In this document: positions 3,001 through 25,493 of the stretch, piece by piece | Layout: each line of letters opens with the position of its first letter | Numbering within the stretch: the first letter of the stretch is position 1 | From: a virus | Length of the DNA: 64,000 nt | IMG/VR virus record: IMGVR_UViG_3300029790_000003 | Strand: one strand, 5' to 3' | Translations under genes and position numbers: made by a program | Notes under the pieces: generated by a model | Database searches by the model: none | The model's input: only the letters and a program-made list of their open reading frames with translations | What the model was told of the DNA's origin: nothing

Positions 3001-3718
3001 TTTCGAGATCGTATAACCAAGGGGTAAATCCGCTTGTATCTTTGGAGGTAATATTAGCTGGAATATTAGATTCTTTTTCATACCATCCGATACACAATCT
3101 ACCGTATGCATCTGTTTTCGCCCACTGACAGCCCATCTGTGCCATCCATGCAATTACCTGTCGAAAAGTAATACTGCTATCATCTGGTCGATTCTGGATT
3201 ACCAAGTCATCATTATCAAATCTGGTTGATTGCAGTGTTACTCCGCACACCTCACAAGCATCCTGGATGATTTGTAATCTGGTTGCCGGGTATGTCAGTT
3301 TGCTATCAGAATAATCACGGTCAAACAATCGCATGGAATCTTCACAAGTTAGGCTGATAATAGCTGTGTTCTGGTATGGGGCATCTGTTACTGTCATGGT
3401 ACAGATACGGATTTTTTCAATACCAGTGGACAATTCAAGTCCAATATGACAAACAACTCTTGCTCCGTCCCAAATGTAATCTGTGTACTTTCCAGAAAAG
3501 TTGTTAATCTGCAAAGTCAGTTTATTTACGATAGCTGCACCAATATCAAAAGAGCCATTTTGCGATACTGCATCCTCAAATTTGAAGCCATTAGACCACA
3601 AGTCCTTGTCGGTAATGGATAATGTGCTTCCGTCCGTAAAGGTAAAATCTGCATATTTCAGATAGTTACGATTCCCACTATTCTGTTGTTCTTTAAATTC
3701 CGTTGATAAATTTCGCAT
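1..3718 (-). CDS. Tail fibre / host-specificity protein, partial (N-terminus at 3718; C-terminus beyond window start)
   Basis: RBS GAGAGG then ATG at 3718. The ORF track lists no closed minus ORF in this frame, so it stays open to position 1. Collagen-like G-X-Y runs (GKNGLPGEPGRDGKT; GANGSPGKPGTDGRT) and ~50-aa tandem repeats (YANSADGK..YIG..DSTNP) are typical of phage fibres. Confidence 0.6.
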   Translation of the reverse strand, partial: MRNLSTEFKEQQNSGNRNYLKYADFTFTDGSTLSITDKDLWSNGFKFEDAVSQNGSFDIGAAIVNKLTLQINNFSGKYTDYIWDGARVVCHIGLELSTGIEKIRICTMTVTDAPYQNTAIISLTCEDSMRLFDRDYSDSKLTYPATRLQIIQDACEVCGVTLQSTRFDNDDLVIQNRPDDSSITFRQVIAWMAQMGCQWAKTDAYGRLCIGWYEKESNIPANITSKDTSGFTPWLYDLEITGVKVTEYSSNSSESNAKTYQSGDEGYIIDISENKLIQPGTGQTICSIIAERCVGLKFRPFTTSALTDIALEAGDAITITDRNGEEHKSYLTSLTLNPGTFEQLECSAKSVSRNKQKQYTLNQQAQSEYRKSLRDERTSREKALEELSQRLAESSGTYTTVETQPDGSNIYYLHNKPQLSDSDIVWKMTAEAWAVSTDGGQHWNGGMTVDGDVIARILTATGVNADWIKTGALVVRDNSGNIIFSADITKHQLIMDGSSIRIGASLLDGLLNSMQGQIDGNVNTWTGTSVPTLSNYPANEWLDDTEMSKHVGDIYYDGDSHAYRFVNEGNGYYWKQLKDTDVTKALKDSEDALSAAKQAQEAAALAKNMTLQLSNEYQGVSVDSDGNYGTFPSDVITHAVVMYGTQDITDDCNFIITKSDSITGIWNNSAKTYTVTGLSADDGWVDVRATYLSALTVTKRFSISKIYAGNDGKNGLPGEPGRDGKTSYTHIAYANSADGKTDFSVSDSNREYIGIYVDFELQDSTNPDDYAWTLVKGADGANGSPGKPGTDGRTPYFHVAYANSADGKMGFDVSDSTGKEYIGQYTDYTEADSTNPGAYSWTKIKGEQGVPGRTYFLESPSYVIKQRANGSVAPSYITLSAWYRDGNAETRTAYKGRFKIEESVDGENWKTVYSSAKDETSVSHNLYTVLSTKAGGIITTASGRSIGIPRDVSAIKCTLYAAGGFSQPLDSQSMAVVIDVDALTHEEIFNLLTNDGAIKGIYKEGNQLYISFTYAKGGTLKLGGKNNGYGILEVLNRRETGWASKLDPDGLTIFKDYVNENNYKCLIFDSSGIKYGVTDSAGLLNLEMPLLVNDNGTMAILTSDIYGYSDDGKTAFQFFSGKTVNSGSMIVNVKSDFYDSANFHKSVTMSGLPWNSSASAAVVFASDMKTLNAAAASSIRYKSIGNGKNIKEDELEDLYRIKVIWAKYKDGYLSEQDERYGKEMPMFIAEDIDRRFPLA

Positions 3719-3721
3719 ATC

Positions 3722-4087
3722 TTACCTCTCGATAAAATCAAAACTAAGTCCTTCCATGCGCTCATTGCCAACCCACCAGCACTTAAAAGGGGATTCCCTG
3801 TCACCAACATAAAATGTTCTGGTTTCGTGCTTGTTTGCAGATAACAAGTCTGGATATGTGACCTGTATGTACTCTGGGTTTACCGCCTGTATAATTTTGC
3901 AAGCAGTGTCCCAATCTGGGCCATTCCAACCTACAGACAGTTTCCGTTTCTGTCCAACTCTGTTTTTATGCATGGTCGTATCGTCTGTTCTGCCGGATTC
4001 TGCCGCTGATATATCCTGTAATCCCCATGTAAAAGAAGAAGGACAGGGCAATGCTACCCCATCCACTTTAAGAAATACTTCTGCCAT
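3722..4087 (-). CDS. Hypothetical protein (121 aa), tail-associated by position
   Basis: ORF with RBS, immediately upstream of the fibre gene, 4-nt intergenic gap. Confidence 0.5.
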   Translation of the reverse strand: MAEVFLKVDGVALPCPSSFTWGLQDISAAESGRTDDTTMHKNRVGQKRKLSVGWNGPDWDTACKIIQAVNPEYIQVTYPDLLSANKHETRTFYVGDRESPFKCWWVGNERMEGLSFDFIER

Positions 4088-4383: not shown

Positions 4384-4680
4384 TCATTCCACAATTCCTC
4401 CTAACATTCTAATCAATTTCTGTTTGCGGTTATACTTCAAAATCTCGGAAATCTGCCCCATCATATCATCCATCGTCATGTTGCTCTTCATGCTGTTGCA
4501 GCGCTTACACGCCAGTTGCAGATTCTTAATATCATTGGTGCCGCCCCGGGACAACGGCGTAATGTGGTCGATTGTCATTTTCTTGAATTTGACAGGTTTA
4601 CCGCATATCGCACATTTTCCGTTGCACTTGGCGTACACACTCTTTTTCTGAAAGTCATTGAACTGGATTCTGTTTGCCAT
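4384..4680 (-). CDS. HNH endonuclease (98 aa)
   Basis: CxxC...DHIxP...N...CxxCN HNH motif (CAICGK..DHITPLSRGG..NLQLACKRCNSMK). Confidence 0.75.
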   Translation of the reverse strand: MANRIQFNDFQKKSVYAKCNGKCAICGKPVKFKKMTIDHITPLSRGGTNDIKNLQLACKRCNSMKSNMTMDDMMGQISEILKYNRKQKLIRMLGGIVE

Positions 4681-4684
4681 ACGA

Positions 4685-4867
4685 TCACGCTTTCCCGATT
4701 AACTGTTTGGTAAAGAGATACATTCCCTTTAATTTTGACAGGTCTTTCAAATTGATAAGATTTTCAATGATTCTCTGGCGGTACATATACTCATCCAGAA
4801 GCACTAAGCACTCGTTGTTATCTGCGTTCAGTTCGTCGATTGTTTTCTGTAATTCAGCTTTTGTCAT
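4685..4867 (-). CDS. Hypothetical protein (60 aa)
   Basis: Short ORF, coiled-coil-like, tightly packed between neighbours. Confidence 0.35.
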   Translation of the reverse strand: MTKAELQKTIDELNADNNECLVLLDEYMYRQRIIENLINLKDLSKLKGMYLFTKQLIGKA

Positions 4868-4903
4868 TTTATTTTCCTCCTGTGTATCCCTGTAAAAATC
4901 TGA

Positions 4904-5719
4904 TTATGCGATTTCTACTCTGTATGCAATCATCATTTCTTTAATCACGCTAACGTAAATCTCTTTCAGCCGCTTATTCTGCATAATCACGGACAGTTTG
5001 TTGATCTGGTTAGTCTGTTCCTTGGTGCATCCTCTTTCCTCGGCTCTGGAAATCGCATTTCTAAGTTGCTGATCTAATCGGCAACCAGCCCTGTCCGATA
5101 ATCTGCGGTAGCTTTCGTTTCTGGCGGCGGCATATTTATTTCCGAATGAGTAAGAAAAATCATCGCTTTCAGCAATCTTTGAAATACATCTGTTTACCCA
5201 CTTCTCTGTTCCAACATCGGAATCTGTTCCCTTAAAGGTATCAATGATGGTTTTCATGTTTTTCTCTTGTTGGTCTGCACGTTCCGCAAGTTTCTTCTGT
5301 TCCAGTTCAGTCTTGGCTACCTGTTGAAAAATCTGATTAAACATTTGCAGTTCGGGGGACAGCTGATTAATGTTGATTGCTGTCTGCTTGTATTTCTCTT
5401 CCACTTGGATGAAATACTTGCGAACCTGTTTCCCTTTGTCGTTGCGCTCAAGCATTGCCATTTCTTTGGCGGTGTCAAGTTTGATGAGGTATTCTAATTT
5501 CGGTCTACCCCCCATAGGTTTTTCATTATTTTGTGAAAAACTCTGATAATCCTCATTTTCTATTGCGTCACACTCTTTCAGACGTGTTTTTATCCAATCT
5601 GTATACTGGCGCTTACTACCAAGGCACTCATATAATTCTGAACCATATACTACTTTTTCACCTGTACTTGTCTCATACACAGGAACTAATTCATTTTCAA
5701 TAACTTTTAAATCTGCCAT
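4904..5719 (-). CDS. Phage antirepressor, AntA/ORF6N N-terminal domain
   Basis: N-terminal pattern VVYGSELYECLG..YTDWIKTRL..EDYQ and AKEMAMLERNDKGKQVRKYFIQVE match AntA/ORF6N family signatures. Confidence 0.6.
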   Translation of the reverse strand: MADLKVIENELVPVYETSTGEKVVYGSELYECLGSKRQYTDWIKTRLKECDAIENEDYQSFSQNNEKPMGGRPKLEYLIKLDTAKEMAMLERNDKGKQVRKYFIQVEEKYKQTAININQLSPELQMFNQIFQQVAKTELEQKKLAERADQQEKNMKTIIDTFKGTDSDVGTEKWVNRCISKIAESDDFSYSFGNKYAAARNESYRRLSDRAGCRLDQQLRNAISRAEERGCTKEQTNQINKLSVIMQNKRLKEIYVSVIKEMMIAYRVEIA

Positions 5720-6940: not shown

Positions 6941-8047
6941 TTACCATTCTGGTGCTGGCATATCACGAACATCGTATGACATATTTACGTATACTTCATA
7001 ACGATCTGGAATTATTGTATTATAATTTAAATCAGTTGGAAAATATGATTGTAAGTAATCAACACTTCCTTTTCTTTGAACATTAGCAAACAAACCATCG
7101 TCACATCCAATTATTCTATTATTTTTATAGTATACAACTGCCATATGGGTTCCACGATTGTTTTTTCCGTTATTCTTAACTGTTAAAACAACACCCTCTG
7201 TTCCTAAATTTGATGTATACGTAATATTCTTTGCATTAAAATCAAAATATGATACATTTTCTGTTTTTAAATTAATTTTTACAGAATCCCATTGACTTCC
7301 ATAATTTGTCATTAATGTAGCATATTTCATCCCTGGCTCAATTACACACGTATCATACTGATTACTTACTGAAACTATTTGTCCATTCAAACAAAAGGCA
7401 CAACTAATGTCAACCGCAACCGCATAATTGTAATTATTTTGAAGAATTATAACTTCTCCCCTTGGCGTTGCTTCTGCGTGATACGTTACATTGTTTTTTG
7501 AAGTACTCGTATTACCGCCAAATCCACCATTAGAAGGCTTTTTCACAGTAACTTTACAGGTAAATTTCTTTCCAAGAATGGTTGCTGTAATATTGGCGGT
7601 TCCTGCCTTTTTCGCAGTAATTTTTCCATTTTTTACGGTCGCAACGCTTTTCTTTGATGATTTCCATTTTACAGTCTGCTTAGTTCCTTTTACTTTTATG
7701 GTACTTGTCTTTCCAACTTTTAAAATAAGGCTTTTCTTGCTAAGTTTTGGAGATTCCACAGTTACTTTGCAAGTATACTTCTTTTTACCCACTTTTGCAG
7801 TGATTGTAGCAGAACCCGATTTCTTGGCTGTTACTTTCCCAGAACCACTTACCGTTGCCACAGATTTCTTGCTGGAAGTCCATTTTGTCTTTCCTTTTGT
7901 TCCAGACAATTTCAGTTTCAAGGTTTGTCCAGTAAGTAACGTTGCCTTATTCTTACTAATCTTCCCTGCCGCAGATACTGGAACTGCCATACAGACAATC
8001 AATAGCATGACTGCCAGAACCGATAGTAACTTTTTCACTTTCTTCAT
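6941..8047 (-). CDS. Secreted protein with two Big_2 (bacterial Ig-like) repeats (368 aa)
   Basis: Signal peptide; two ~55-aa repeats (KWxSSKKSVATV..GK.TAKK.G.A.ITA...GKK.TCKVTV) typical of Big_2. Confidence 0.65.
   Translation of the reverse strand: MKKVKKLLSVLAVMLLIVCMAVPVSAAGKISKNKATLLTGQTLKLKLSGTKGKTKWTSSKKSVATVSGSGKVTAKKSGSATITAKVGKKKYTCKVTVESPKLSKKSLILKVGKTSTIKVKGTKQTVKWKSSKKSVATVKNGKITAKKAGTANITATILGKKFTCKVTVKKPSNGGFGGNTSTSKNNVTYHAEATPRGEVIILQNNYNYAVAVDISCAFCLNGQIVSVSNQYDTCVIEPGMKYATLMTNYGSQWDSVKINLKTENVSYFDFNAKNITYTSNLGTEGVVLTVKNNGKNNRGTHMAVVYYKNNRIIGCDDGLFANVQRKGSVDYLQSYFPTDLNYNTIIPDRYEVYVNMSYDVRDMPAPEW
7552..7927 (-). repeat. Tandem ~190-bp coding repeat (two Big_2 domains)
   Basis: Protein-level duplication visible in translation. 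Confidence 0.45.
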
Positions 8048-8938: not shown

Positions 8939-9571
8939 TTATCGCAGTAATTCTTTATCAATAATCTGGAAATTTGCCCTGTGGATATAAAGAGCTTTTC
9001 CGTCAATCATTAACTTTGTCATTTTAGGTAGATCGTCCGGGATTTTCCAGAACACCTCGTCACCAGAATATGCGGCTATCGGTTGTCCAAGTTGAGATTT
9101 GATTACTACAACCCTGGATTTCCCAAAATAATTTTTATAATAATTCACAATCCCGGCTATGTATGCATTCTCTGAAATCTTCCCGGTTGAATGGCTGGTA
9201 ATATCTTCCTGGGTAAAATCAACCTCCGGCTCCAATCCTTTTTGCTCAAAAATACAAGTATCACCACAGCTTTCAATTTCTTTACCGTCAATCAGAATTG
9301 TAATAACGGAAGATACGTCATAGCTGGTTGTTTCGTTACCCTCACTATCGTAGCCCTTGGATTTGGTTTTATTCCCGGCAATGTTGATCTTGTCCCCAGT
9401 GGTAGTCATAACCTTTTGACCGTAGTTGTCGTAGGTATAGATTGTGTAACTGTTTCCAGAAAGATTTCCTTTCACGTCATTCATGTAATCGTCATTCGCT
9501 GCACAGCCTGTTAGCCCTGTGATAACGCAAATAAAGGTAATTATCGCCAGTAGTGTTTTGATTCTTTTCAT
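8939..9571 (-). CDS. Lipoprotein (210 aa)
   Basis: Signal peptide with lipobox LTGC (ITGLTGCAAN). Confidence 0.65.
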   Translation of the reverse strand: MKRIKTLLAIITFICVITGLTGCAANDDYMNDVKGNLSGNSYTIYTYDNYGQKVMTTTGDKINIAGNKTKSKGYDSEGNETTSYDVSSVITILIDGKEIESCGDTCIFEQKGLEPEVDFTQEDITSHSTGKISENAYIAGIVNYYKNYFGKSRVVVIKSQLGQPIAAYSGDEVFWKIPDDLPKMTKLMIDGKALYIHRANFQIIDKELLR

Positions 9572-10234: not shown

Positions 10235-11452
10235 TTAAGGTCTAAAATCATGCTTTTTTCTTTCCTCGCTTTCATATTCTGCACATTTTTCGGCGCAAAT
10301 AGTCCCTCCACAGGAAAACATAGCTTCTGGCATTTGCACTTTTTCATCATATTCTTTGCCTAATTTAAGCATTGAAAACATATTACCATAGTCTTCTCTA
10401 GTAACACAATTTGACCAATATTTATTTGACGCATAATGATTTAAAAGTCTTAATCCTTGTTCGGTAGTTAAAACTGGGTGAGGTTCATTGTATGTTTGAT
10501 AGTATTCCCTGTAATATTCTCTTAGCAATTCTGTGAAACCATTAAGGTACGGAATTAAGCTAACTCTATTTTGCGGCGAATATCTTTCAGAAAAGAAATA
10601 TCCATTATTTTCTAAATCAAGCCCATATTTAATATTTTTTATGCTCTTTTCGCCGTCAATATCTAGTATTCCTACAAAACATTTATCCATCATATAGTTT
10701 TGTGCAAATTTATCCTTATCAAATTTAACGCTTGGATATTTGACAAATATCTTCAAATACCGTTTATTTTTCTTTTCCTCCGCAAAATCTTCTTCTGTGA
10801 TTAAATATGTTTCAACATAATATTTTAAAAGTTTCGGATTAAACTCTATTCCTCGTGATGTTAAAACTTTCTTGATATAATTGAAATAATACTTTGACTT
10901 ATTATCCCCCTTTGAGTGATTAATACACACTCCTGGTATTTTTGAAAATGCCATTACAATTTCATCGTATGAAAATTCTTTACAATATGATTTTACGGAT
11001 TTTTCCATTGCGTCCATAATTTTATCTGCTGAAAATCTTTTCAACCAGATTCCTATTTCTTTGCGTCCGTTATCGTTTACATCACACCCTGTCAATTGTT
11101 CAAAATATTCGGTTAGCATGTTTACTGCCATATTATCATAATCGAGTAGCTCTTTCTTCCATTCAGCAATCATTTCCAACTGTTCTTTTTTCTCTGCAAG
11201 ATCTTTTAATGCTTCCTGTTGAAACGATATTGCTTTGGAATCTAAAATTCTAGTTTTTCCCTTCCCTCTATTGCAGTCGCGGCACGAAGTAATTAAATTT
11301 GTAATCTCATTATCCCCGCCCTCTGCTACTGGCTCAATATGGTCTACTTCCAAAATTACGTCTGGTGACATTCTTCCACAGTATTGACATGTGAATTTGT
11401 CTCTTTTGAATACTTCAAATCTGATTTTCTTGCTAAGTGGTTTTCTTGCCAT
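10235..11452 (-). CDS. HNH endonuclease-domain protein with ~330-aa C-terminal extension
   Basis: Start moved to MARKPL (RBS AAAGGCAGG); CQYCGR..EVDHIEPVAEGG..NLITSCRDCN HNH motif. Confidence 0.65.
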   Translation of the reverse strand: MARKPLSKKIRFEVFKRDKFTCQYCGRMSPDVILEVDHIEPVAEGGDNEITNLITSCRDCNRGKGKTRILDSKAISFQQEALKDLAEKKEQLEMIAEWKKELLDYDNMAVNMLTEYFEQLTGCDVNDNGRKEIGIWLKRFSADKIMDAMEKSVKSYCKEFSYDEIVMAFSKIPGVCINHSKGDNKSKYYFNYIKKVLTSRGIEFNPKLLKYYVETYLITEEDFAEEKKNKRYLKIFVKYPSVKFDKDKFAQNYMMDKCFVGILDIDGEKSIKNIKYGLDLENNGYFFSERYSPQNRVSLIPYLNGFTELLREYYREYYQTYNEPHPVLTTEQGLRLLNHYASNKYWSNCVTREDYGNMFSMLKLGKEYDEKVQMPEAMFSCGGTICAEKCAEYESEERKKHDFRP

Positions 11453-11580
11453 AGATTGATACCTGCCTTTCGTATAAAAGAGTGCCTTGAACTGTATGTA
11501 AATCAACAGGCAGGCGGCAAGGCATTTCCGCTTTTCGATGATCGGTCTAGCCTGTTGGTTTTACCAAAATTAACGGTTAA

Positions 11581-19211: not shown

Positions 19212-19505
19212 CTACTCTTCTTTTCCAGACTGCTTAATAAGCTGATTTACATAAGTACTTAATCCAGCAACGATAATTCCTTGTGTAATTGCAGTAAACA
19301 GTGCCATCGCAACTTCCTGTGAACCGGAAACTGTAGATGTTGCAAAAACATAAAGACCGCAAATTAACATGCCGAGAATTCCTAAAATCATCGGAATAAA
19401 TTTGTCAGAAATATTTTCTGATTTTTTAATCATTACCCCGATAAAATAAAGAACTACAACGACAATAAGTAATTCTGGCTTTACATAACTTAAAATCTGA
19501 TCCAT
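19212..19505 (-). CDS. Small membrane protein with holin-like architecture (97 aa)
   Basis: Two or three TM helices and a charged C-terminus (..NQLIKQSGKEE). Confidence 0.4.
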   Translation of the reverse strand: MDQILSYVKPELLIVVVVLYFIGVMIKKSENISDKFIPMILGILGMLICGLYVFATSTVSGSQEVAMALFTAITQGIIVAGLSTYVNQLIKQSGKEE

Positions 19506-20608: not shown

Positions 20609-20993
20609 CCTCATTTCCTCTCTTGGAAATTCCGTATCTGGCAATATTGCCTTTTTGTGTGTCTAAAATCTTCTTTAGTGTGTAGTCTGGCAATACTGTG
20701 GGTTCTCCATCTTTGTTCAAAATAAGGTTTCCATCCTCGCTTATTTGTGGGATTCTATCTATCCAAAATATGTCCGCTTCCTGTGGATGAAAATTTCGAT
20801 TAAAGCTTGTAATATACCTGTCGTAATCTGGCACTATTCCGGCTGCAATTTCTTCCGGCGTTCCAGCAGTGGATGATACGGAAAAAGAGTATAAAACTGG
20901 TTTCTCATAAACTTTAATACGGTCTAATCCTTGTGTTTTCTCAGATATTCGTGACCAATATACCTTTTGCTTTTGACGGACTAATCCTCTCAT
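20601..20993 (-). CDS. Head-tail adaptor/joining candidate (130 aa)
   Basis: Size and position only. Confidence 0.4.
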   Translation of the reverse strand: MRGLVRQKQKVYWSRISEKTQGLDRIKVYEKPVLYSFSVSSTAGTPEEIAAGIVPDYDRYITSFNRNFHPQEADIFWIDRIPQISEDGNLILNKDGEPTVLPDYTLKKILDTQKGNIARYGISKRGNEDG

Positions 20994-21376
20994 GCAATCA
21001 TCCTTTCTGCTCTAACAGGGGCTACATATGTGAATTGGTTTCCCAAAATATCTCTGGCCGTACCAATCACGAAATGGCCGTAGTCTGCCAGAATATTGCA
21101 TACAAATTCCTCTGCGTCCACCCAATATCGTTTCTCAATCATACGGTGAAGCTCTGGCAGTAGACCATAGCTGAACATCACGCAATGCCCTAATTCGTGG
21201 ATAAATACACGGTTCAGAAGTTCTCCATGCAAGTTGCTTGCAATTGAAATTGTCATTGTAGAGTAATCAGATACAGCAAGTGTCCTTTGCCCTGTACGGT
21301 CAATCAAAACATTATCATTGGGAGAAACAAAGCGCACTCTCCATAAGTCCCCATTCATATAGAATTGTTTCAGCAT
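20990..21376 (-). CDS. Small HExxH-motif protein (128 aa), possible ImmA/IrrE-like metallopeptidase fold
   Basis: VFIHELGHCV HExxH motif. Confidence 0.4.
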   Translation of the reverse strand: MLKQFYMNGDLWRVRFVSPNDNVLIDRTGQRTLAVSDYSTMTISIASNLHGELLNRVFIHELGHCVMFSYGLLPELHRMIEKRYWVDAEEFVCNILADYGHFVIGTARDILGNQFTYVAPVRAERMIA

Positions 21377-21452
21377 GGTTTCTCACCATCCTTTCTACGA
21401 AAAAAGCCCCTGCCGCATTAATTTGCGACAAGGACTTAATTCATTTATTGCT

Positions 21453-22085
21453 CTAGTTCATCTGCTGTACAAGTCTGGTCAGGTCAGTTTTCATTGACTG
21501 TCTGAGCGTTGCATCTGCATCAGACCACATTTCCGTGAGATTACGGATAATATCAGATGTGTACTCCTTCATGGAATCATCCATTTTTCTTTTGGATTCC
21601 GTGTCTTTGGAATCATGATAATGCCTACGATTCTCATCGTATCTATCATAGGATTCGCCATATCTGGACTTCTTCCAATTCATATTCATACCATCATTTT
21701 CCATATCACTACGATCTGGATGATATCCCATGCGGTACATATTACGTTCAAACTCTGGATTGTTTAAATACTCGTCCATCCAGTCATCGTCTTCCATGTA
21801 CAGATATGGCCTATAACCTTTTCTGGTTCCCCTACCTTTTGGAGCGAAACGCCCATTTGAATAGCGGTAACGGTCATAGCCCATGCGTCCAAGATACTTT
21901 TCTTCCTGTTCGCATTCGTCCATAGCTTCCACAATGCGATAATCTTTATCAGCGCAAATCGCACATTTTACTGCTTCCATGCAGTCTTTCAGATCGTCCC
22001 AATCTTGAGCACTGAGATTATCAAAGCCATGTGTTTTGGCTTTTTCCATAGCCCATTTTCCCATTTCCATTGCAACTTTATGCAT
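21453..22085 (-). CDS. Low-complexity R/Y/D/M/E-rich protein (210 aa)
   Basis: Repeats of GYDRYRY, GYRPYLYMEDDDWMDEY, MYRMGYHPDRSD; spore-coat-like composition. Confidence 0.55.
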   Translation of the reverse strand: MHKVAMEMGKWAMEKAKTHGFDNLSAQDWDDLKDCMEAVKCAICADKDYRIVEAMDECEQEEKYLGRMGYDRYRYSNGRFAPKGRGTRKGYRPYLYMEDDDWMDEYLNNPEFERNMYRMGYHPDRSDMENDGMNMNWKKSRYGESYDRYDENRRHYHDSKDTESKRKMDDSMKEYTSDIIRNLTEMWSDADATLRQSMKTDLTRLVQQMN

Positions 22086-22510
22086 TACAGTGCCCCCTTT
22101 CTAACAGCCTGCGTAACAGGTGCTTCTGTCGTTGGGGCTGTACCATTAATTGCTTTCAAATTGTTGCTCGGACTACAAGCCGGATTTCCTAACATCTTGA
22201 ATACTCCGCCAGTTGCACTTGTAGCTACTCTGGTTGCGTACTTCGTTCTGGTTCTTATTCCACAAGCCGTAATCTGTGCACAGCAACGATTTTCTAGCGG
22301 ATACAAAGTTGTTCCTGTTCCTATCTGAATCATTACCGGAGCAGTAATTGTAGTGGCTTCTGGTATACTTTGTGCAACAACAATACAATATTTCTCTCCA
22401 TTGTTGTAACTGCCTGCTGGGAGTGTGATTACAAGATTACCTCCTGTAAACGCAACAGCTTGGCTTATTACAAGACGGTTGCAGAGCTTACAAACATTTT
22501 TACAACTCAT
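22085..22510 (-). CDS. Cys/Thr-rich small protein (141 aa)
   Basis: Start moved to MSCKNV (RBS GAGAGGTAG); CC pairs (NRCCAQITACG). Confidence 0.5.
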   Translation of the reverse strand: MSCKNVCKLCNRLVISQAVAFTGGNLVITLPAGSYNNGEKYCIVVAQSIPEATTITAPVMIQIGTGTTLYPLENRCCAQITACGIRTRTKYATRVATSATGGVFKMLGNPACSPSNNLKAINGTAPTTEAPVTQAVRKGAL

Positions 22511-22521
22511 ATTTCTACCTC

Positions 22522-22558
22522 TCAATCAAAATAAGAGGTGAGCCGCAACCCACCTCTT
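22522..22558 (-). terminator. Rho-independent terminator after the 263-aa low-complexity gene
   Basis: AAGAGGTG-agccgcaac-CACCTCTT 8-bp stem followed (minus) by ATTTTGATT. Confidence 0.5.
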
Positions 22559-22589
22559 AGAATTTAGTCAACCTCTAAGGGTGAGTTAC

Positions 22590-23381
22590 TTAGCAACAAC
22601 CGTTACCATATGTATTACATCCTGCGTATGCATATGGAGCTGGAACCTGGAATGCAGGAATCGGAGCCGGGTTGATTGCATTGATTAATCTCTGAGCCTG
22701 TGCGTACATCTCTGTTGTAAGCAATGCAGACTGGCGATCCTGGGATGCAGCACGTTTCAGATCAGAGTTCTCTGCCTGTAATGTTGCAATCTTATCGTTA
22801 GTCAGGAAGTCAAGGATTGCTCTTGTGTTGCTGTTCTGGTTTTCCAGAAGATCTCTGGTGTTGTTGTTCATTGTGTTCTGGAGAGCACAAGTGTTAGTGG
22901 CAAGGTTATAATTGATGCCCTGGATTGCTTCTCTTGTTTCGCAGCAACAATTTGCTAACTGAGACTGTAATGCATTGGTATTCTGCATACCGGCTACAGT
23001 ATCAGCATTGATTGCCTGCTGAACGCCGTTGAAGCCTTGAAGCATTCCGACATTCATACCATTAAAGCCACTCTGCATGGTATTGTTAAGAGAATATGTG
23101 CTGTCACAGATACCCTGCTGAATACCTCTGATACCATTTTGAATATCATTAAGGGCGAATTCCTCATTAATATCTGAACGGGTAGCCCATCCTTGGAAGC
23201 CGGCACCATTTGTACCATTGCCACCCCAGCCACCAAAGCCGCCGAAACCGCCCCAGCCAAAGATAAGCAATATTATAATCCACCATGCCCAGCCACCGCC
23301 AAAGCCATAGCCTTCATCTGCACGGTTATTAGAGCCGCTTAATACAGCGACATCGCTTGCTGATAATCCACCATTCATCAT
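22590..23381 (-). CDS. Gly/Asn/Gln-rich membrane-anchored protein with Cys-rich C-terminus (263 aa)
   Basis: GYGFGGGWAWWIIILLIFGWGGFGGFGGWGG TM/glycine segment; N/Q/M-rich repeats; CCC and terminal GCNTYGNGCC. Confidence 0.55.
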   Translation of the reverse strand: MMNGGLSASDVAVLSGSNNRADEGYGFGGGWAWWIIILLIFGWGGFGGFGGWGGNGTNGAGFQGWATRSDINEEFALNDIQNGIRGIQQGICDSTYSLNNTMQSGFNGMNVGMLQGFNGVQQAINADTVAGMQNTNALQSQLANCCCETREAIQGINYNLATNTCALQNTMNNNTRDLLENQNSNTRAILDFLTNDKIATLQAENSDLKRAASQDRQSALLTTEMYAQAQRLINAINPAPIPAFQVPAPYAYAGCNTYGNGCC

Positions 23382-23458
23382 AGCGATTACCTCCTTATTG
23401 ATTTTTGTAATTTATACAAAATCAAAAGACCGCGGCTCTTTTAATTATTGTAGCGAAT

Positions 23459-23698
23459 TTATTTTATTCCAAACTGATTCTTAACCTGCGATAACATATC
23501 ATCAGGATTAATCCCTTTTTCTTGGCAAAGATTTCTTGCAAGTTTTTCAATTCCTGCATTATCACCTTTTTCCATCATGTTAATTGCATTGTCAATTACA
23601 GGATTATTTCCAGACTGTTGTTTCATCATATTGATTATGGCTTGTTGAGGATTCCCTCCACCACGTATCATCTGCATAAGTTGCATTGGATTCATCAT
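23459..23698 (-). CDS. M/Q/N-rich small protein (79 aa)
   Basis: ORF with a 4-nt overlap to the upstream gene. Confidence 0.45.
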   Translation of the reverse strand: MMNPMQLMQMIRGGGNPQQAIINMMKQQSGNNPVIDNAINMMEKGDNAGIEKLARNLCQEKGINPDDMLSQVKNQFGIK

Positions 23699-24183
23699 CT
23701 CTGTTTACCTCCATTCTGCTTGGGTTCCGGTGTTCCCGACATTTGTGTCGGAAACATACTCTTTATTTCGGAAATCTCAGAACAAACATCGTTTCGAAGC
23801 TGATTAAACATAGCTTCTATGTCAATCGGTTTTTCTTCTGCCTTTGGTTGCTGTTGTTCTTCCGGATTTATAAGTCGGTAAACAAAAATTCTACTTCTTC
23901 CATCTGCCTGTAATTGTTTTCTATATATTTCTGTTCCATCTGTTTTTGGATAATAAACAGGGTTTCCAGACATATCTACGTCTTTTGCCTTTACAGTATC
24001 AATGCCATCTACCATCTGCCCTTGTAACATGGGAATTTGTGGTACTTGTGGCATTGGTTGTTGAATTTGTGCCTGTCCGTATGGCATTGCCTGCTGATAA
24101 CTATTCTGCAATTGTGCTAATCTATCTTGATACGGCTGTATTTGTTGAAATGGTTGCGCAAAATACGGATTACCATACTGCAT
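23695..24183 (-). CDS. Q/P/Y-rich (prion-like N-terminus) protein (162 aa)
   Basis: MQYGNPYFAQPFQQIQPYQ... low-complexity N-terminal half. Confidence 0.5.
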   Translation of the reverse strand: MQYGNPYFAQPFQQIQPYQDRLAQLQNSYQQAMPYGQAQIQQPMPQVPQIPMLQGQMVDGIDTVKAKDVDMSGNPVYYPKTDGTEIYRKQLQADGRSRIFVYRLINPEEQQQPKAEEKPIDIEAMFNQLRNDVCSEISEIKSMFPTQMSGTPEPKQNGGKQR

Positions 24184-24273
24184 ATCTCAAACCTCCCTTG
24201 TTTTTATAACTATATTTTACAATAATAAGAGGTTGATTAACACGCCACGATAACGCCATAAATACGCCACGTT

Positions 24274-24513
24274 TTATGAATACAAAGAAAAGCCCCGACA
24301 ATACATCGGGGCGACTTTCATAATTTTCTTCTTTAATTTTCTGTTTATGCGGTCTACTGTTCTTGTACTGTACCCCATGATTTCTGAAGCTTCTGCAAGC
24401 GTTTTTTCTTCATAAACACGCAATCGGAATAACTCCTTTTCTCTGGAATCAAATCCAGCTTCACGCAAATAGAAGATTCTTTCATCTTCTGAAAAGTCTT
24501 TATAATCATCCAT
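24274..24513 (-). CDS. Sigma-70 region-4-like HTH protein (79 aa), candidate late-gene regulator
   Basis: REKELFRLRVYEEKTLAEASEIMGYSTRTVDRINRKLKKK matches the region 4.2 pattern. Confidence 0.45.
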   Translation of the reverse strand: MDDYKDFSEDERIFYLREAGFDSREKELFRLRVYEEKTLAEASEIMGYSTRTVDRINRKLKKKIMKVAPMYCRGFSLYS

Positions 24514-24545
24514 TCCACTGTCCTCCCTGTTAGTGGAATCAATAT

Positions 24546-24857
24546 TTACACCGGGAAAATGCCTTTTAGGGCAAAGCCTAAAACAATACCAATTATGCCA
24601 GTTATGACATAAGCAATTATTTTGTCCTGTAACTTTCCTGGCTTTTCCATAAGTGATTTTAAATTGTCGTTCATTTCGTCAACTGTATCTTTGATGTGTC
24701 CCAGATCGTTGTTGTATAAAGCAATTTTCTGTTCCAGCGCATTGATACGTTCAAAAAAAACTCCATCCCTTTTGGAATGCTTTTCTTTCATCTCATGGAC
24801 GGCACTTTCCAATTCTTTTAAGCGGTGTTCGTTGATACACTCGTGTTCACATCCCAT
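24546..24857 (-). CDS. XhlA-like protein (coiled coil plus C-terminal TM; 103 aa)
   Basis: N-terminal coiled coil and C-terminal helix IIAYVITGIIGIVLGFAL, as in PBSX XhlA. Confidence 0.45.
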   Translation of the reverse strand: MGCEHECINEHRLKELESAVHEMKEKHSKRDGVFFERINALEQKIALYNNDLGHIKDTVDEMNDNLKSLMEKPGKLQDKIIAYVITGIIGIVLGFALKGIFPV

Positions 24858-24964
24858 CGCTATTCCTTTCCATCACTCCCATTTTTAAGATATTGCTTCT
24901 ACCCACCTAATTTGAAGCACCCCTGCGATACGTGGGAGGATTGACGTATCACGCACACACCATC

Positions 24965-25285
24965 TTAGAATCCGATAAATGGAAAAACTCCATGATTTAC
25001 ATAGATTTCAGTTTCGGAATCCCAGCTTCTATTCACAGAGGATTCGGAATGTGATCCTTGAAACTCAGCTCCCTGCTTTACTAGAAAGAAAAGAGCCAAA
25101 TCAAATATGCAATCATAGCATTTCTCCATATCGGAATTTATTTTCTCATCACTGTAAGATGTAGGATAATTCCTTTTCTTCTTAAATGAACGAATAGCCC
25201 TCTCTGCTGAAAGAGGAATCATCCTCGCTGTTTCTGCATCATCTTCAAGATAATTTGTCAAATCTTCTATAAGCTGTTCGTCCAT
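24965..25285 (-). CDS. Head-tail connector, gp6-like (106 aa)
   Basis: Directly downstream of MCP; MDEQLIEDLTNYLEDDAETARMIPLSAERAI pattern typical of Phage_connect_1. Confidence 0.5.
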   Translation of the reverse strand: MDEQLIEDLTNYLEDDAETARMIPLSAERAIRSFKKKRNYPTSYSDEKINSDMEKCYDCIFDLALFFLVKQGAEFQGSHSESSVNRSWDSETEIYVNHGVFPFIGF

Positions 25286-25493
25286 TTAATCACCTACCTT
25301 TGCTGAGATAAAATCTCTGATATTATTCCAGCCTTATTAGTTGCTGTCAGGGCATAGCCGTTATCACTAGCAAGTTGTCTCAACTGTGATACAGTCATAT
25401 TAGACAACTCGCTTTCTGTATACTTATGTGTTGATTCATCATAAACACTCGCTACAGATGGTGACTGGCTGTTTTCATCGAGACTATGCCCGG

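What the first reader, a model, noticed from the sequence alone, without database searches (positions are those of the whole stretch)
21453..24960. Seven-gene insert of compositionally extreme, spore-coat-like proteins with XhlA-like and sigma-region-4-like genes, inside the head-tail joining module
Between the gp6-like connector (24965..25285) and the head-tail/tail-completion genes lies a 3.4 kb co-oriented block that no standard siphovirus layout requires.

- **Gene content:** an XhlA-like coiled-coil/TM protein, a 79-aa sigma-70 region-4-only protein, a Q/P/Y-rich prion-like protein, an M/Q/N-rich 79-aa protein, a 263-aa protein, a Cys/Thr-rich 141-aa protein and an R/Y/D/M-rich 210-aa protein with GYDRYRY-type repeats.
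- **The 263-aa protein:** it carries a glycine/tryptophan transmembrane segment (GYGFGGGWAWWIIILLIFGWGGFGGFGG), N/Q/M-rich repeats and a CCC...GCC terminus.
- **Spore-coat resemblance:** the Tyr/Cys/Gly/Gln-rich, low-complexity composition resembles cross-linked spore-coat and exosporium proteins (CotG/CotC/CotY/Z/YjcZ style) far more than any head or tail family.
- **Signs of a separately regulated cassette:** a 7-bp inverted repeat (GATACGT-N10-ACGTATC, 24927-24950) sits in the intergenic region upstream of the first gene, and an internal terminator lies at 22522-22558.
- **Interpretation:** a phage-borne cassette that alters spore or cell surface, or a new virion appendage, would be undescribed.
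Basis: partly seen in the sequence, partly recalled or inferred. Interest (0 to 1): 0.85.

Follow-up and report, generated by a model that had tools for sequence, protein, structure and literature searches.

The report
Widespread uncharacterised phage accessory gene module
The seven odd-looking genes are real and belong to a self-regulated gene module of unknown function that thousands of gut-bacterial viruses carry at different places in their genomes; nothing ties it to spores, and whether it acts at the cell membrane or on the virus particle remains open.

Summary
Seven co-oriented minus-strand genes lie at 21453-24857 between the capsid and tail genes, with the stated compositions, hydrophobic segment, CCC motif, inverted repeat and terminator.

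- **What it is:** g2-g7 form a conserved module (sigma-region-4 HTH, Q/P/Y protein, M/Q/N protein, hydrophobic-anchor coiled-coil protein with invariant CCC, Cys-rich beta protein, R/Y/D-rich protein). The order is kept in phages of Lachnospiraceae, Oscillospiraceae, Clostridium perfringens and Butyrivibrio. The core protein, with compositional analogues of its partners, also occurs in Bacteroides and crAss-like phages.
- **Position:** it varies between lineages: head-tail junction, portal/MuF-scaffold gap, after the lysis genes next to the integrase, prophage edge, early region.
- **Annotation:** every family is "hypothetical". The core protein family has at least 7942 90%-identity clusters.
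- **Regulation:** three terminators, three TGGCGT repeats at an 11-bp period after the HTH gene, and a covarying two-hairpin 5' leader.
- **Spore-coat reading:** not supported. A virion appendage is not excluded.
- **Best guess (about 0.35):** a membrane-associated complex made late in the infected cell, linked to lysis or the envelope.
- **Limits:** structure predictions failed, and no experimental data exist.

The parts
24858..24964 (-). Structured 5' leader of g1. Hairpin 1 has its stem at 24927-24933/24944-24950 and a loop carrying CCTCCC (24934-24939). Hairpin 2 spans 24894-24919 with a G-rich loop. GGGAGTGA lies downstream at 24873-24880.
   Evidence: Seven lineage variants keep both stems through compensatory changes: 95.8% of cells paired, 7 of 14 pairs changed on both sides, covariation 0.561 against 0.294+-0.042 in shuffles (0/500), slid controls at most 0.167. 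No Rfam match.
24546..24857 (-). g1: XhlA-like protein, coiled-coil N-terminal part and a C-terminal transmembrane helix (residues 80-98).
   Evidence: phrog_937 'hemolysin' 1.9e-13. Pfam XhlA 3.5e-4, below the curated cut-off. Kyte-Doolittle 2.23 over residues 80-98. An XhlA-like gene precedes the module in 27 of 80 Oscillospiraceae-type loci.
24274..24513 (-). g2: 79-aa protein consisting of a sigma-70 region-4-type HTH only; candidate module-specific transcription activator.
   Evidence: Pfam Sigma70_r4 4.1e-7 (29.8 bits, cut-off 24.1); NCBIfam sigma70-ECF 8.2e-9, region 4 only. Homologues lie directly upstream of g3 or of the Cys-peptidase-like gene in many lineages.
24292..24312 (-). Intrinsic-terminator-like hairpin at the 3' end of g2 (9-bp stem with 6 G-C pairs, then a T run).
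   Evidence: The last 12 codons of g2 read through this hairpin; homologues end at ...KKKIMKV.
24242..24269 (-). Three TGGCGT direct repeats at an exact 11-bp period: operator-like array for g2.
   Evidence: TGGCGT-N5-TGGCGT occurs only here in 64 kb, against 0.00 expected. Other lineages carry 3-4 repeats of a different word at the same period and position.
24214..24221 (-). Extended -10-like TGTAAAAT, 20 nt after the last repeat and upstream of g3.
   Evidence: Read directly from the sequence. Inferred promoter, not tested.
23695..24183 (-). g3: Q/P/Y-rich low-complexity N-terminus, a roughly 50-aa conserved central segment and a C-terminal amphipathic stretch.
   Evidence: phrog_21718 (unknown function) 7.6e-19. 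Family found in 30 diverse loci. Alignment A6. No PDB or Pfam match.
23459..23698 (-). g4: 79-aa M/Q/N-rich protein; its start overlaps the g3 stop by 4 nt.
   Evidence: Two subfamilies (18 and 13 loci) always sit between g3 and g5.
22590..23381 (-). g5: core protein. Gly/Trp/Phe-rich hydrophobic segment (about residues 24-51), long helices, invariant CCC (145-147), Pro-rich then Cys/Gly-rich tail.
   Evidence: phrog_16490 (unknown function) 1.6e-68. At least 7942 90%-identity clusters and 2693 50%-identity clusters, the best 150 listed being 118-399 aa. Invariant columns in A1, including a Bacteroides phage member. AF2 model of low confidence: helices 31-40, 87-123, 135-236.
22532..22559 (-). 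Intrinsic terminator after g5 (12-bp stem, T run).
   Evidence: sequence.
22085..22510 (-). g6: 141-aa Cys/Thr-rich protein with predicted beta strands in its N-terminal half. Other lineages carry a non-homologous BclA_C-like protein at this position.
   Evidence: 4904 clusters, all hypothetical. A2 conserves 5 Cys. No homology to the BclA_C-like alternative (hhalign probability 0.1). AF2 pLDDT 47.9; Foldseek found nothing.
21453..22085 (-). g7: short helical N- and C-terminal regions around an R/Y/D/M/G-rich low-complexity middle; overlaps the g6 stop by 1 nt.
   Evidence: 1457 clusters, all hypothetical. Family found in 27 diverse loci. Alignment A7 shows the motif RRDS(M/R)GRYSR in most lineages.
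21404..21437 (-). Strongest terminator-like hairpin (14 pairs, 7 G-C), after g7; it marks the 3' end of the cassette.
20990..21376 (-). 128-aa HExxH...E zincin-like small metallopeptidase. Membership in the module is uncertain: it follows the module in many Lachnospiraceae loci but is translationally coupled to the next structural-region gene.
   Evidence: phrog_1233 6e-10. Invariant H60, E61, H64 and nearly invariant E90. Peptidase_M78, SprT-like and DUF6782 hits, none stronger than E = 1e-4, in 8, 7 and 5 of 12 members. PDB selecase MJ1213 at E = 0.05. 4-nt overlap with the 130-aa gene.

Best explanation
The block is one copy of a widespread, self-contained accessory module of phages that infect gut anaerobes. 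It is not part of the head-tail joining machinery.

**Shown**
- Seven real genes lie in three terminator-bounded units: g1-g2, g3-g4-g5 and g6-g7.
- The order g2-g3-g4-g5-g6-g7 is conserved across unrelated phage backbones and at unrelated genome positions.
- A dedicated sigma-region-4-type HTH gene (g2) is followed by a lineage-specific array of 3-4 direct repeats at an 11-bp period, just ahead of g3.
- A covarying two-hairpin leader precedes g1.

**Inferred**
- g2 activates the g3-g5 promoter, and probably the g6-g7 unit as well.
- g5 is the core of the assembly. Its Gly/aromatic-rich hydrophobic segment inserts into, or associates with, the cytoplasmic membrane, and its long helices oligomerise around the invariant Cys triplet.
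- The Met/Gln-rich g4 and the low-complexity g3 and g7 act as partners or chaperones.
- The Cys-rich beta protein g6 (a BclA_C-like protein in other lineages) caps or binds the Cys/Gly-rich tail of g5.
- A small peptidase processes a component. In other lineages this is a Cys-His-Asp type enzyme; here it may be the adjacent HExxH protein.
- The complex forms in the infected cell late in the lytic cycle and acts on the envelope, in lysis control or envelope disruption. This would explain the repeated linkage to XhlA-like, holin/endolysin and LysB-like genes.

The biochemical activity is unknown.
For: - **Real genes, large families:**
- **Same order in Dulem virus 35 between the minor capsid and scaffold genes:**
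- **Same order in 22 GTDB genome loci:**
- **Same order in 80 further IMG/VR loci:** the commonest architectures are pepC-(g2)-g3-g4-g5-g6'-g7, some preceded by an XhlA-like gene.
- **Variable position:** portal+MuF upstream in about 23 loci. Others lie at the end of the late region, with an oppositely oriented 340-460-aa ORF just downstream; one family of these (7 loci) is a tyrosine integrase by its motifs, read by eye. After the lysin in Butyrivibrio phage Ceridwen. In the early region of C. perfringens phage XP41-N3. At a prophage edge beside host metH, and next to the integrase in the unintegrated form.
- **Dispensable for the backbone:** 3 of 69 capsid-defined relatives lack g5-g7 but keep all flanking structural genes.
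- **Regulation:** terminators; a TGGCGT x3 array unique in the window; lineage-specific repeat words at the same position; the covarying leader.
- **Membrane association:** C-terminal transmembrane helix in g1 and a hydrophobic segment in g5.
- **Link to lysis genes:** g1 is XhlA-like. An XhlA-like gene precedes the module in 27 of 80 loci. A holin-like gene and an NlpC/P60-like endolysin (both named by eye from their sequences) lie upstream in L013. An endolysin is upstream in Ceridwen. A LysB/FtsL-like gene is upstream in crAss cr52_1.
- **Peptidase association:** a Cys-type or HExxH-type gene is present in nearly all complete loci, and an HExxH gene follows the Bacteroides phage version.
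Against: - No protein of the core has a detectable homologue of known function: Pfam, NCBIfam, PADLOC and PDB profile searches all failed.
- AF2 models of g5 and g6 were too poor to use, so oligomerisation, capping and chaperone roles are inference from composition and gene order only.
- The g5 hydrophobic segment has no flanking positive charges. It scores only 1.62 over 19 residues, so true membrane insertion is not certain.
- In two large lineages the module lies next to capsid genes, and g5 has a capsid-gene-strength ribosome-binding site. This fits a virion component equally well.
- Linkage to lysis genes could simply reflect shared 'end of late operon' hot spots.
- In the window the HExxH gene is separated from g7 by the strongest terminator and is coupled to the next gene.
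Confidence: 0.35

Rival explanations
1. Virion-associated set. g5 would be a trimeric coiled-coil fibre or whisker, or an internal/ejection protein whose hydrophobic segment enters the target membrane. g6 (or the BclA_C-like g6') would be its distal knob. g3, g4 and g7 would be assembly chaperones or internal proteins, and the peptidase would be a maturation enzyme.
For: - Adjacent to capsid genes in the window lineage and directly after portal+MuF (a site known for packaged cargo) in about 23 of 80 other loci.
- The g5 ribosome-binding site is as strong as the capsid gene's.
- BclA_C / C1q-like jelly-rolls are typical fibre tips. This holds for g6' only, below threshold.
- Bacteroides and crAss homologues are annotated 'viral fibre' or 'spike' by their depositors.
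- In relatives the neighbouring variable site holds 659-900-aa proteins with variable C-termini, which I read as fibre-like.
Against: - The position is not fixed in the morphogenesis module: early region in XP41-N3, beside the integrase/att site in L188/L189, after the lysis genes elsewhere.
- It has its own HTH regulator and terminators.
- 3 of 69 relatives lack the core yet keep a full structural gene set.
- No PHROG structural category is assigned.
- The 'spike' labels rest on weak coiled-coil similarity: HA2 at E about 0.3.
Confidence: 0.25
2. Lysogenic-conversion or superinfection-exclusion module. It would be expressed from the prophage (or early) and place a complex in the host membrane that blocks DNA entry by other phages or otherwise changes the cell surface.
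For: - Classical moron positions: between the late region and an oppositely oriented integrase-like gene, and at the prophage edge next to host genes.
- It sits next to a DUF4352 gene and an ORF6N gene, which I read as the lysogeny/early control region.
- It has its own regulator and terminators.
- It encodes membrane-anchored proteins.
Against: - The core also occurs in an uncultured crAss-like phage and in plaque-isolated phages: Bacteroides C3_41T2LP, and Ceridwen, whose paper title describes 'phages active against' the host. That these are virulent is my reading; no life-cycle data were checked.
- Six to eight genes with extreme low-complexity composition are unlike known one-gene Sie proteins (my knowledge).
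- No PADLOC defence-family hit.
- In the window it is embedded co-directionally in the late structural operon.
Confidence: 0.17
3. Spore-coat or exosporium remodelling. Phage-encoded Tyr/Cys/Gly/Gln-rich proteins would be incorporated into, or cross-linked onto, the spore surface of a lysogen.
For: - Compositional resemblance to coat proteins.
- A BclA C-terminal-domain-like protein occupies the sixth position in other lineages.
- A GerE-sized HTH regulator (from memory).
- Some of the host groups are Clostridia, a class with many spore formers (the sporulation point is from memory).
Against: - No HMM match to any Cot, YjcZ, Cde or exosporium family for the window proteins.
- No sporulation-sigma promoter consensus.
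- The g5 family and analogous partners occur in a Bacteroides phage, a crAss-like phage and a Butyrivibrio phage, whose hosts do not sporulate as far as I know.
- None of the proteins has a signal peptide, by eye.
Confidence: 0.03

Closest known systems
PBSX-type lysis cassette xhlA-xhlB-xlyA of Bacillus subtilis (Pfam XhlA PF10779; PHROG 'hemolysin')
   Same: g1 has the XhlA layout (coiled coil plus a C-terminal transmembrane helix) and matches phrog_937 at 1.9e-13. XhlA-like or other lysis genes recur immediately upstream of the module in several lineages.
   Different: No holin or endolysin adjoins g1 in the window; the only holin found, a Hol44 type, is 5 kb away. The Pfam XhlA score is below the cut-off. 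The six following genes have no counterpart in PBSX.
Phage 'morons' and lysogenic-conversion cassettes (autonomous units with their own promoter and terminator, inserted at hot spots)
   Same: Own regulator, terminators, variable genome position and occasional absence in close relatives.
   Different: This is a conserved multi-gene module kept in fixed order across phyla of hosts and in both prophage-embedded and plaque-isolated phages. It is not a single cargo gene, and no host-benefit function is recognisable.
Phage late-gene activators that bind tandem direct repeats upstream of a promoter lacking a -35 element (e.g. Alt of lactococcal phage TP901-1; ArpU/RinA-type sigma-like regulators) - recalled from memory
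   Same: A small HTH related to sigma region 4, followed by 3-4 direct repeats at helical periodicity ahead of a -10-like element.
   Different: g2 is only 66-79 aa. It controls, at most, this module rather than the whole late operon. Binding has not been tested.
i-spanins (lambda Rz, P2 LysB) and class I viral fusion subunits (influenza HA2)
   Same: An N-terminal hydrophobic segment followed by a long coiled coil with conserved Cys. A LysB-like gene neighbours the crAss version. There is a weak profile hit to HA2, fusion peptide plus coiled coil, at E about 0.3.
   Different: No significant homology. No o-spanin lipoprotein partner. Most carrier phages come from Firmicutes lineages, which in my understanding lack an outer membrane. 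The hydrophobic segment lacks flanking basic residues.
Bacillus anthracis exosporium protein BclA (C-terminal C1q/TNF-like domain, PF18573)
   Same: The alternative sixth gene (g6') of other lineages aligns over the full BclA_C model (best E 4.4e-7, 4 of 15 members) and is Cys-rich.
   Different: All scores are below the gathering threshold. There is no collagen-like region and no exosporium-targeting N-terminus. The window's own g6 is unrelated to it.
Minigluzincins / selecase (MJ1213) and M78 (ImmA/IrrE), SprT-like zincins
   Same: The adjacent 128-aa protein has HExxH plus a downstream Glu, is of minigluzincin size, and gives consistent sub-threshold hits.
   Different: Not significant for the window protein itself (E = 0.04-0.05). 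The substrate and any link to the module are unknown.

Membership tests
XhlA (Pfam PF10779) | Match to the family HMM above the curated gathering score | tested here: not met
   g1 scores 21.1 bits against a cut-off of 34.7 (E = 3.5e-4). It does match the PHROG 'hemolysin' family phrog_937 at 1.9e-13 over its full length.
XhlA (Pfam PF10779) | Architecture: coiled-coil region plus a single C-terminal transmembrane helix | tested here: met
   Hydropathy 2.23 over residues 80-98. The coiled-coil families all hit residues 10-80.
XhlA (Pfam PF10779) | Genomic partnership with a holin and an endolysin (xhlB, xlyA) | tested here: not met
   The next genes are g2-g7. The only holin found is the Hol44 type at 19212-19505, and no endolysin was found among the window ORFs scanned.
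Sigma-70 family sigma factor | Region 4 HTH | tested here: met
   g2 matches Sigma70_r4 at 29.8 bits, above the cut-off of 24.1.
Sigma-70 family sigma factor | Region 2 (core binding and -10 recognition) present | tested here: not met
   g2 is 79 aa. HMM matches cover only model positions equivalent to region 4, e.g. TIGR02937 positions 116-163 of 165. It is therefore a stand-alone HTH, not a sigma factor.
Spore coat / exosporium proteins (CotG, CotC, CotY/Z, YjcZ, BclA) | Sequence-family membership (Pfam or NCBIfam HMM) | tested here: not met
   None of the seven proteins matches any such family at E up to 1.
Spore coat / exosporium proteins (CotG, CotC, CotY/Z, YjcZ, BclA) | Mother-cell sporulation promoters (sigma-E / sigma-K) | tested here: not met
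   No match to the B. subtilis-type consensus patterns on the coding strand of 21300-25400. This is a weak test, because the consensus may differ in the real host.
Spore coat / exosporium proteins (CotG, CotC, CotY/Z, YjcZ, BclA) | Restriction to endospore-forming hosts | tested here: not met
   g5 homologues with analogous partner genes occur in Bacteroides phage C3_41T2LP, crAss-like cr52_1 and Butyrivibrio phage Ceridwen. That these hosts do not sporulate is from my knowledge.
BclA C-terminal domain (PF18573) | HMM match for the window's sixth protein | tested here: not met
   g6 gives no hit and is not homologous to the BclA_C-like g6' family (hhalign probability 0.1).
Virion structural module component (head fibre, decoration or connector) | Conserved position within the morphogenesis gene order of related phages | tested here: not met
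   The position is fixed only within the window's own lineage. Elsewhere the module lies after the lysis genes, next to the integrase, or in the early region.
Virion structural module component (head fibre, decoration or connector) | Presence in the proteome of purified virions | not testable with these tools
   No proteomic data were found for any carrier phage.
Spanin (i-spanin / o-spanin pair) | N-terminal transmembrane helix plus periplasmic coiled coil with conserved Cys | tested here: inconclusive
   g5 has a hydrophobic segment, long predicted helices and an invariant CCC. Topology is undetermined and there is no homology.
Spanin (i-spanin / o-spanin pair) | Partner outer-membrane lipoprotein gene, and a host with an outer membrane | tested here: not met
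   No lipobox-bearing small ORF was seen in the block by eye. The nearest genome-derived relatives come from Ruminococcus, Lachnospira and Lachnospiraceae, which in my understanding lack an outer membrane.
Autonomous accessory ('moron-like') module | Own regulatory signals (regulator, promoter-like element, terminators) | tested here: met
Autonomous accessory ('moron-like') module | The same unit at different loci in unrelated phage backbones, and presence/absence among close relatives | tested here: met
   Searches show the different loci. 66 of 69 relatives carry it and 3 lack the core.
Zincin metallopeptidase (M78 / SprT / minigluzincin) for the 128-aa neighbour | HExxH motif plus a third ligand or downstream Glu, conserved across the family | tested here: met
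   H60, E61 and H64 are invariant and E90 nearly invariant in A11.
Zincin metallopeptidase (M78 / SprT / minigluzincin) for the 128-aa neighbour | HMM match above the curated threshold | tested here: not met
   The window protein scores 14.1 bits against a cut-off of 22 for Peptidase_M78. Among the 12 family members the best E-value is 1e-4.

The most novel reading that the evidence does not exclude
The module builds a previously unknown kind of phage-made proteinaceous assembly from cohesive low-complexity proteins: Gly/aromatic-rich, Q/N-rich, R/Y-rich and Cys-rich. One form would be a membrane-anchored gel or cross-linked matrix. Another would be a fusion-protein-like membrane-remodelling machine. 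It would form around or beside maturing virions under a private transcription factor. It would serve phages of both monoderm and diderm gut anaerobes, for example in envelope rupture, virion protection or embedding, or exclusion.
Probability: 0.12. Interest if true: 0.9.

Novelty: categorically new. Interest (0 to 1): 0.62.

Why it matters
- **Scale and conservation:** the core protein family alone comprises at least 7942 90%-identity clusters, or 2693 clusters at 50% identity. It travels with a fixed set of partner genes through phages of Lachnospiraceae, Oscillospiraceae, Clostridium, Butyrivibrio and, in diverged form, Bacteroides and crAss-like phages. Not one member carries a functional annotation.
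- **What that implies:** a multi-gene unit conserved this widely, with its own regulator, must do something important in the gut phage life cycle. Working out what would annotate tens of thousands of 'hypothetical' genes at once.
- **Testability:** cultured carriers exist, namely Butyrivibrio phage Ceridwen, several C. perfringens phages and Bacteroides phage C3_41T2LP.
- **By-products:** two candidate regulatory elements, a repeat-array operator paired with a minimal sigma-region-4 protein, and a covarying leader RNA with an anti-Shine-Dalgarno loop.
- **If it proves ordinary** (for example a fibre plus chaperones), it would still define a new, very common virion protein family.

Tried and rejected
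1. **Family scans of all seven proteins plus neighbours** (Pfam, NCBIfam, PHROGs, PADLOC): only g1 (XhlA-like) and g2 (sigma region 4) are informative. g3 and g5 hit PHROGs of unknown function. There are no defence-system hits.
2. **Profile searches of the g5, g6, g6', g3, Cys-peptidase and HExxH families against PDB sequences:** nothing significant. The best hits were HA2 at E 0.28 and selecase at E 0.05.
3. **AlphaFold2 of g5 and g6** with 42- and 37-sequence alignments: mean pLDDT 45.5 and 47.9. Foldseek of the g6 model against PDB found no match with E below 1. The afdb50 library was unavailable. The alignments were limited to homologues of at least 57-70% identity, which probably caused the failure.
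4. **Homology between the two alternative sixth genes:** rejected.
5. **Rfam scan of the block:** only chance-level hits.
6. **Sporulation-sigma and sigma-A consensus scans:** nothing. The generic promoter scan was not enriched, with 10 hits against 12.3 expected.
7. **Plasmid collection:** only two weak hits, so the family looks largely confined to phage and prophage sequence in the collections searched.
8. **Literature:** no paper mentions DUF7841 or the two PHROG numbers, and nine searches surfaced no description of this gene set. No virion proteome of a carrier phage was found.
9. **The idea that the HExxH gene is an integral module member:** weakened by the terminator and the translational coupling in the window.
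10. **RiPP or double-glycine-leader reading of g4 with the Cys peptidase:** considered because of the conserved N-terminal GG. Dropped for lack of any supporting match.

Full report
**1. The observation**

- All have Shine-Dalgarno sequences. That of g5 (AAGGAGGT) is the same as the major capsid gene's. g3/g4 overlap by 4 nt and g6/g7 by 1 nt.
- Compositions, the Gly/Trp hydrophobic stretch of g5 (from residue 24), its CCC (145-147) and its ...GNGCC end are confirmed.
- g1 matches the PHROG 'hemolysin' family at 1.9e-13 and Pfam XhlA below the cut-off. g2 matches Sigma70_r4 above the cut-off and nothing of regions 2-3.
- The block sits between portal, scaffold and major capsid genes on one side and the major tail protein on the other.
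- The 106-aa 'connector' and the 130/183/168-aa genes match no family. The 128-aa gene next to g7 is an HExxH zincin-like protein.
- The inverted repeat (24927-24950) and the terminator after g5 (22532-22559) exist. Two further terminator-like hairpins end g2 (24292-24312) and g7 (21404-21437).

**2. These are genes of very large, unannotated families**

- g5 has at least 7942 90%-identity clusters at E <= 1e-5 (a capped search) and 2693 50%-identity representatives. The best 150 listed are 118-399 aa, mostly 230-300 aa. None of the listed members carries a functional name. One close g5 homologue has a single precomputed Pfam entry; the rest have none.
- g6 has 4904 clusters and g7 has 1457, likewise all 'hypothetical'.
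- At least 600 IMG/VR stretches encode g5 relatives. The plasmid collection has only two weak hits.

**3. The block is a module**

- Dulem virus 35 has unrelated terminase, portal and capsid genes. It nevertheless carries an XhlA-like gene, a transmembrane gene, the HTH, a Q/P/Y protein, an M/Q/N protein, a g5 homologue, a 142-aa protein and an R/Y/D protein in the same order. There the set lies between the minor capsid gene and the scaffold.
- Local HMM iteration over 22 GTDB genome loci and the annotated phages found g3 in 30 loci, g4 in 31 (two subfamilies), g5 in 32 and g7 in 27. At the sixth position, 11 loci have the window-type g6 and 18 have a non-homologous protein, g6'.
- g6' resembles the BclA C-terminal domain only below threshold: 4 of 15 members, best E 4.4e-7.
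- Eighty further Oscillospiraceae-type IMG/VR loci show almost one architecture, pepC-(g2)-g3-g4-g5-g6'-g7. An XhlA-like gene precedes it in 27 of them. 'pepC' is a roughly 130-aa protein with invariant D-C...H...D, consistent with a papain-like peptidase by residue pattern only. It has no Pfam or PDB match.
- Loci lacking pepC mostly have the HExxH protein after g7.
- Cultured carriers are Butyrivibrio phage Ceridwen and six C. perfringens phages.
- g5 homologues also occur in Bacteroides phage C3_41T2LP and in crAss-like Suoliviridae phages. There they are flanked by an R/Y/D/E-rich protein, a DUF7841 protein, an HExxH protein and, in the crAss-like phage cr52_1, a LysB/FtsL-like gene.
- In cr52_1 the DUF7841 domain and an R/Y/D/E-rich tail are fused in one protein. 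DUF7841 proteins also follow g7 in 12 Firmicute-phage loci.

**4. Position and dispensability**

Within the window's own lineage the block is at a fixed site: 66 of 69 capsid-defined relatives have all seven genes. Three relatives lack g5-g7, with or without g3/g4, but keep the flanking structural genes. In two of these, ORF fusions to a tyrosine recombinase gene suggest recombinase-mediated rearrangement.

In other lineages the module lies in four kinds of place:

- after portal and a MuF/gp7-like gene;
- at the end of the late region, next to an oppositely oriented integrase-like gene;
- immediately inside a prophage border beside host metH, and next to the integrase in the unintegrated form;
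- in the early region of XP41-N3.

This is the behaviour of an autonomous accessory unit, not of a fixed morphogenetic gene.

**5. Regulation**

- *Repeat array.* After the terminator that ends g2 there are three TGGCGT repeats at an exact 11-bp period (24242-24269). The spaced pair occurs nowhere else in the window, against 0.00 expected. An extended -10-like TGTAAAAT follows 20 nt later.
- *Lineage specificity.* At the same place other lineages have 3-4 repeats of a different word at the same period: TGGCGAAA, TGATAG, CACTTT, TGACC, ATTGCAC. This pattern is what a lineage-specific DNA-binding activator would produce, and g2 is the obvious candidate. That link is inferred, not tested.
Across seven lineage variants both stems change sequence but keep pairing: 95.8% of cells are paired and 7 of 14 pairs have double changes. 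Covariation is 0.561 against 0.294+-0.042 in shuffles, 0 of 500 shuffles reach the observed value, and slid controls are at most 0.167.
- *Conserved loops.* The loops are conserved (CCTCCC and a G-rich word). RNAalifold alternatively pairs CCTCCC with the downstream GGGAGTGA. No Rfam family matches. I read this as a cis-acting RNA of the Shine-Dalgarno / anti-Shine-Dalgarno type.

**6. What it is not**

- *Not spore coat.* There is no HMM match to any coat, exosporium or YjcZ family. There is no sporulation-promoter consensus. Homologues occur in phages of Bacteroides and Butyrivibrio.
- *Not a known defence or anti-defence system*.
- *Not a sigma factor.* g2 has region 4 only.

**7. What it may be**

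Structure prediction failed for g5 and g6 (pLDDT 45.5 and 47.9). Profile searches against PDB gave only chance-level hits. The mechanism below is therefore inference from anatomy.

- g5 has a hydrophobic Gly/aromatic segment, about 150 residues of predicted helix with an invariant Cys triplet, and a Pro-rich then Cys/Gly-rich tail.
- g1 has a clear transmembrane helix.
- g4 is a small Met/Gln/Asn-rich protein coupled to g3, always just before g5.
- g3 and g7 combine short folded parts with Q/P/Y-rich or R/Y/D/G-rich low-complexity regions. g7 homologues share the motif RRDS(M/R)GRYSR.
- A small peptidase almost always accompanies the set.
- Lysis-type genes recur just upstream: XhlA-like, holin/endolysin, LysB-like.

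The most economical reading is a membrane-associated multiprotein assembly made late in the infected cell under a private activator, acting on the envelope (confidence about 0.35).

The main rivals are:

- a virion fibre or internal-protein set (0.25), favoured by the capsid-proximal and MuF-proximal positions and by the strong g5 ribosome-binding site;
- a prophage-expressed exclusion or conversion module (0.17), favoured by the att/integrase-proximal positions.

The spore reading is at about 0.03.

**8. Novelty and score**

None of the nine literature searches surfaced a description of these families or of the module.

The closest known things each share one feature and fail on the others. 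They are XhlA lysis cassettes, morons, repeat-binding late activators, spanins and fusion proteins, BclA and minigluzincins.

I rate the module as lying outside described kinds of phage system. The caveat is that 'unknown function' is not the same as 'new mechanism'. Interest is 0.62. It is real, extremely common, cross-phylum, oddly composed and testable in cultured phages, but its function remains open and a mundane outcome such as a fibre plus chaperones is quite possible.

Noticed in passing
window 24858-24964 (minus strand): Covarying two-hairpin leader RNA upstream of the XhlA-like gene. The loop of hairpin 1 is CCTCCC (anti-Shine-Dalgarno-like) and the loop of hairpin 2 is G-rich. No Rfam family matches.
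   Followed up: yes
window 24242-24269 (minus strand); same position in L010, L013, L016, L020, L050, L102, L104: Three TGGCGT direct repeats at an 11-bp period between g2 and g3. Other lineages have 3-4 repeats of a different word at the same place, suggesting lineage-specific operators for the region-4-only HTH protein.
   Followed up: partly
window 19212-19505 (minus strand): A bona fide Hol44-type holin (Pfam Phage_holin_5_2, 2e-28) sits among the tail genes, just upstream of the major tail protein gene. It is absent from this position in many close relatives (the '-' entries in the holin column), so it is a second movable insert in the structural region.
   Followed up: partly
junction at window 20990-20993; L108:15582-17941, L029:12739-17744 and others: In 41 of 49 relatives in which both flanking genes were found, a 1.4-5.1 kb variable insert lies between the HExxH gene and the 130-aa gene. 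It encodes 659-900-aa proteins with a shared N-terminus (MATALDLLMS...) and variable C-termini, which I read as fibre-like. Sometimes it also encodes a second HExxH protein and a 374-aa endolysin-like protein. The window has no insert there.
   Followed up: partly
L129:13264-16385, L152:11922-13064, L173: Three relatives lack g5-g7. In L152 the g2 ORF is fused in frame to a tyrosine recombinase. In L129 the first 16 codons of g5 are fused to a 520-aa ORF that I read as fibre-like, followed by the same recombinase. This suggests recombinase-driven rearrangement or shuffling at this hot spot, though assembly chimeras are possible.
   Followed up: partly
L106 (crAss-like cr52_1) 4644-5579 and 3376-3990: The crAss g5 homologue and the LysB-like gene contain in-frame stops under table 11. 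Reading TAG as a sense codon (table 15) restores a full-length g5 homologue, consistent with stop-codon reassignment in this phage.
   Followed up: partly
L213:5495-5977 and 11 similar loci; L106:4024-4623; L107:6934-7335: The family of 160-aa proteins that follows g7 in 12 Firmicute-phage loci shares the HW(T/S)xEQT...NMVYSDY motif of Pfam DUF7841 (judged by eye). DUF7841 is confirmed by Pfam in the two Bacteroidota-phage versions. In cr52_1 it is fused to an R/Y/D/E-rich tail like that of g7. The window has no such gene.
   Followed up: partly
window 24274-24312: The last 12 codons of g2 (APMYCRGFSLYS) are encoded by the terminator hairpin itself. Homologues end at ...KKKIMKV(I), so the tail is probably a by-product of the terminator rather than functional protein.
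   Followed up: no
window 10235-11506, 8939-9571, 6941-8047, 4904-5719: Other cargo near the tail region: a 423-aa HNH endonuclease directly after the 2032-aa ORF that I take to be the tape-measure gene, a DUF5052 protein, a 368-aa Big_2 Ig-like-domain protein and an AntA-type antirepressor.
   Followed up: no
L188:8968-12420 versus L189:7115-12038: In one prophage lineage the attachment site appears to separate the g2 homologue and integrase (one prophage end, inferred because the integrated locus shows neither) from g3-g7 (the other end, beside host metH). If so, the regulator and its target operon would become contiguous only after excision.
   Followed up: no
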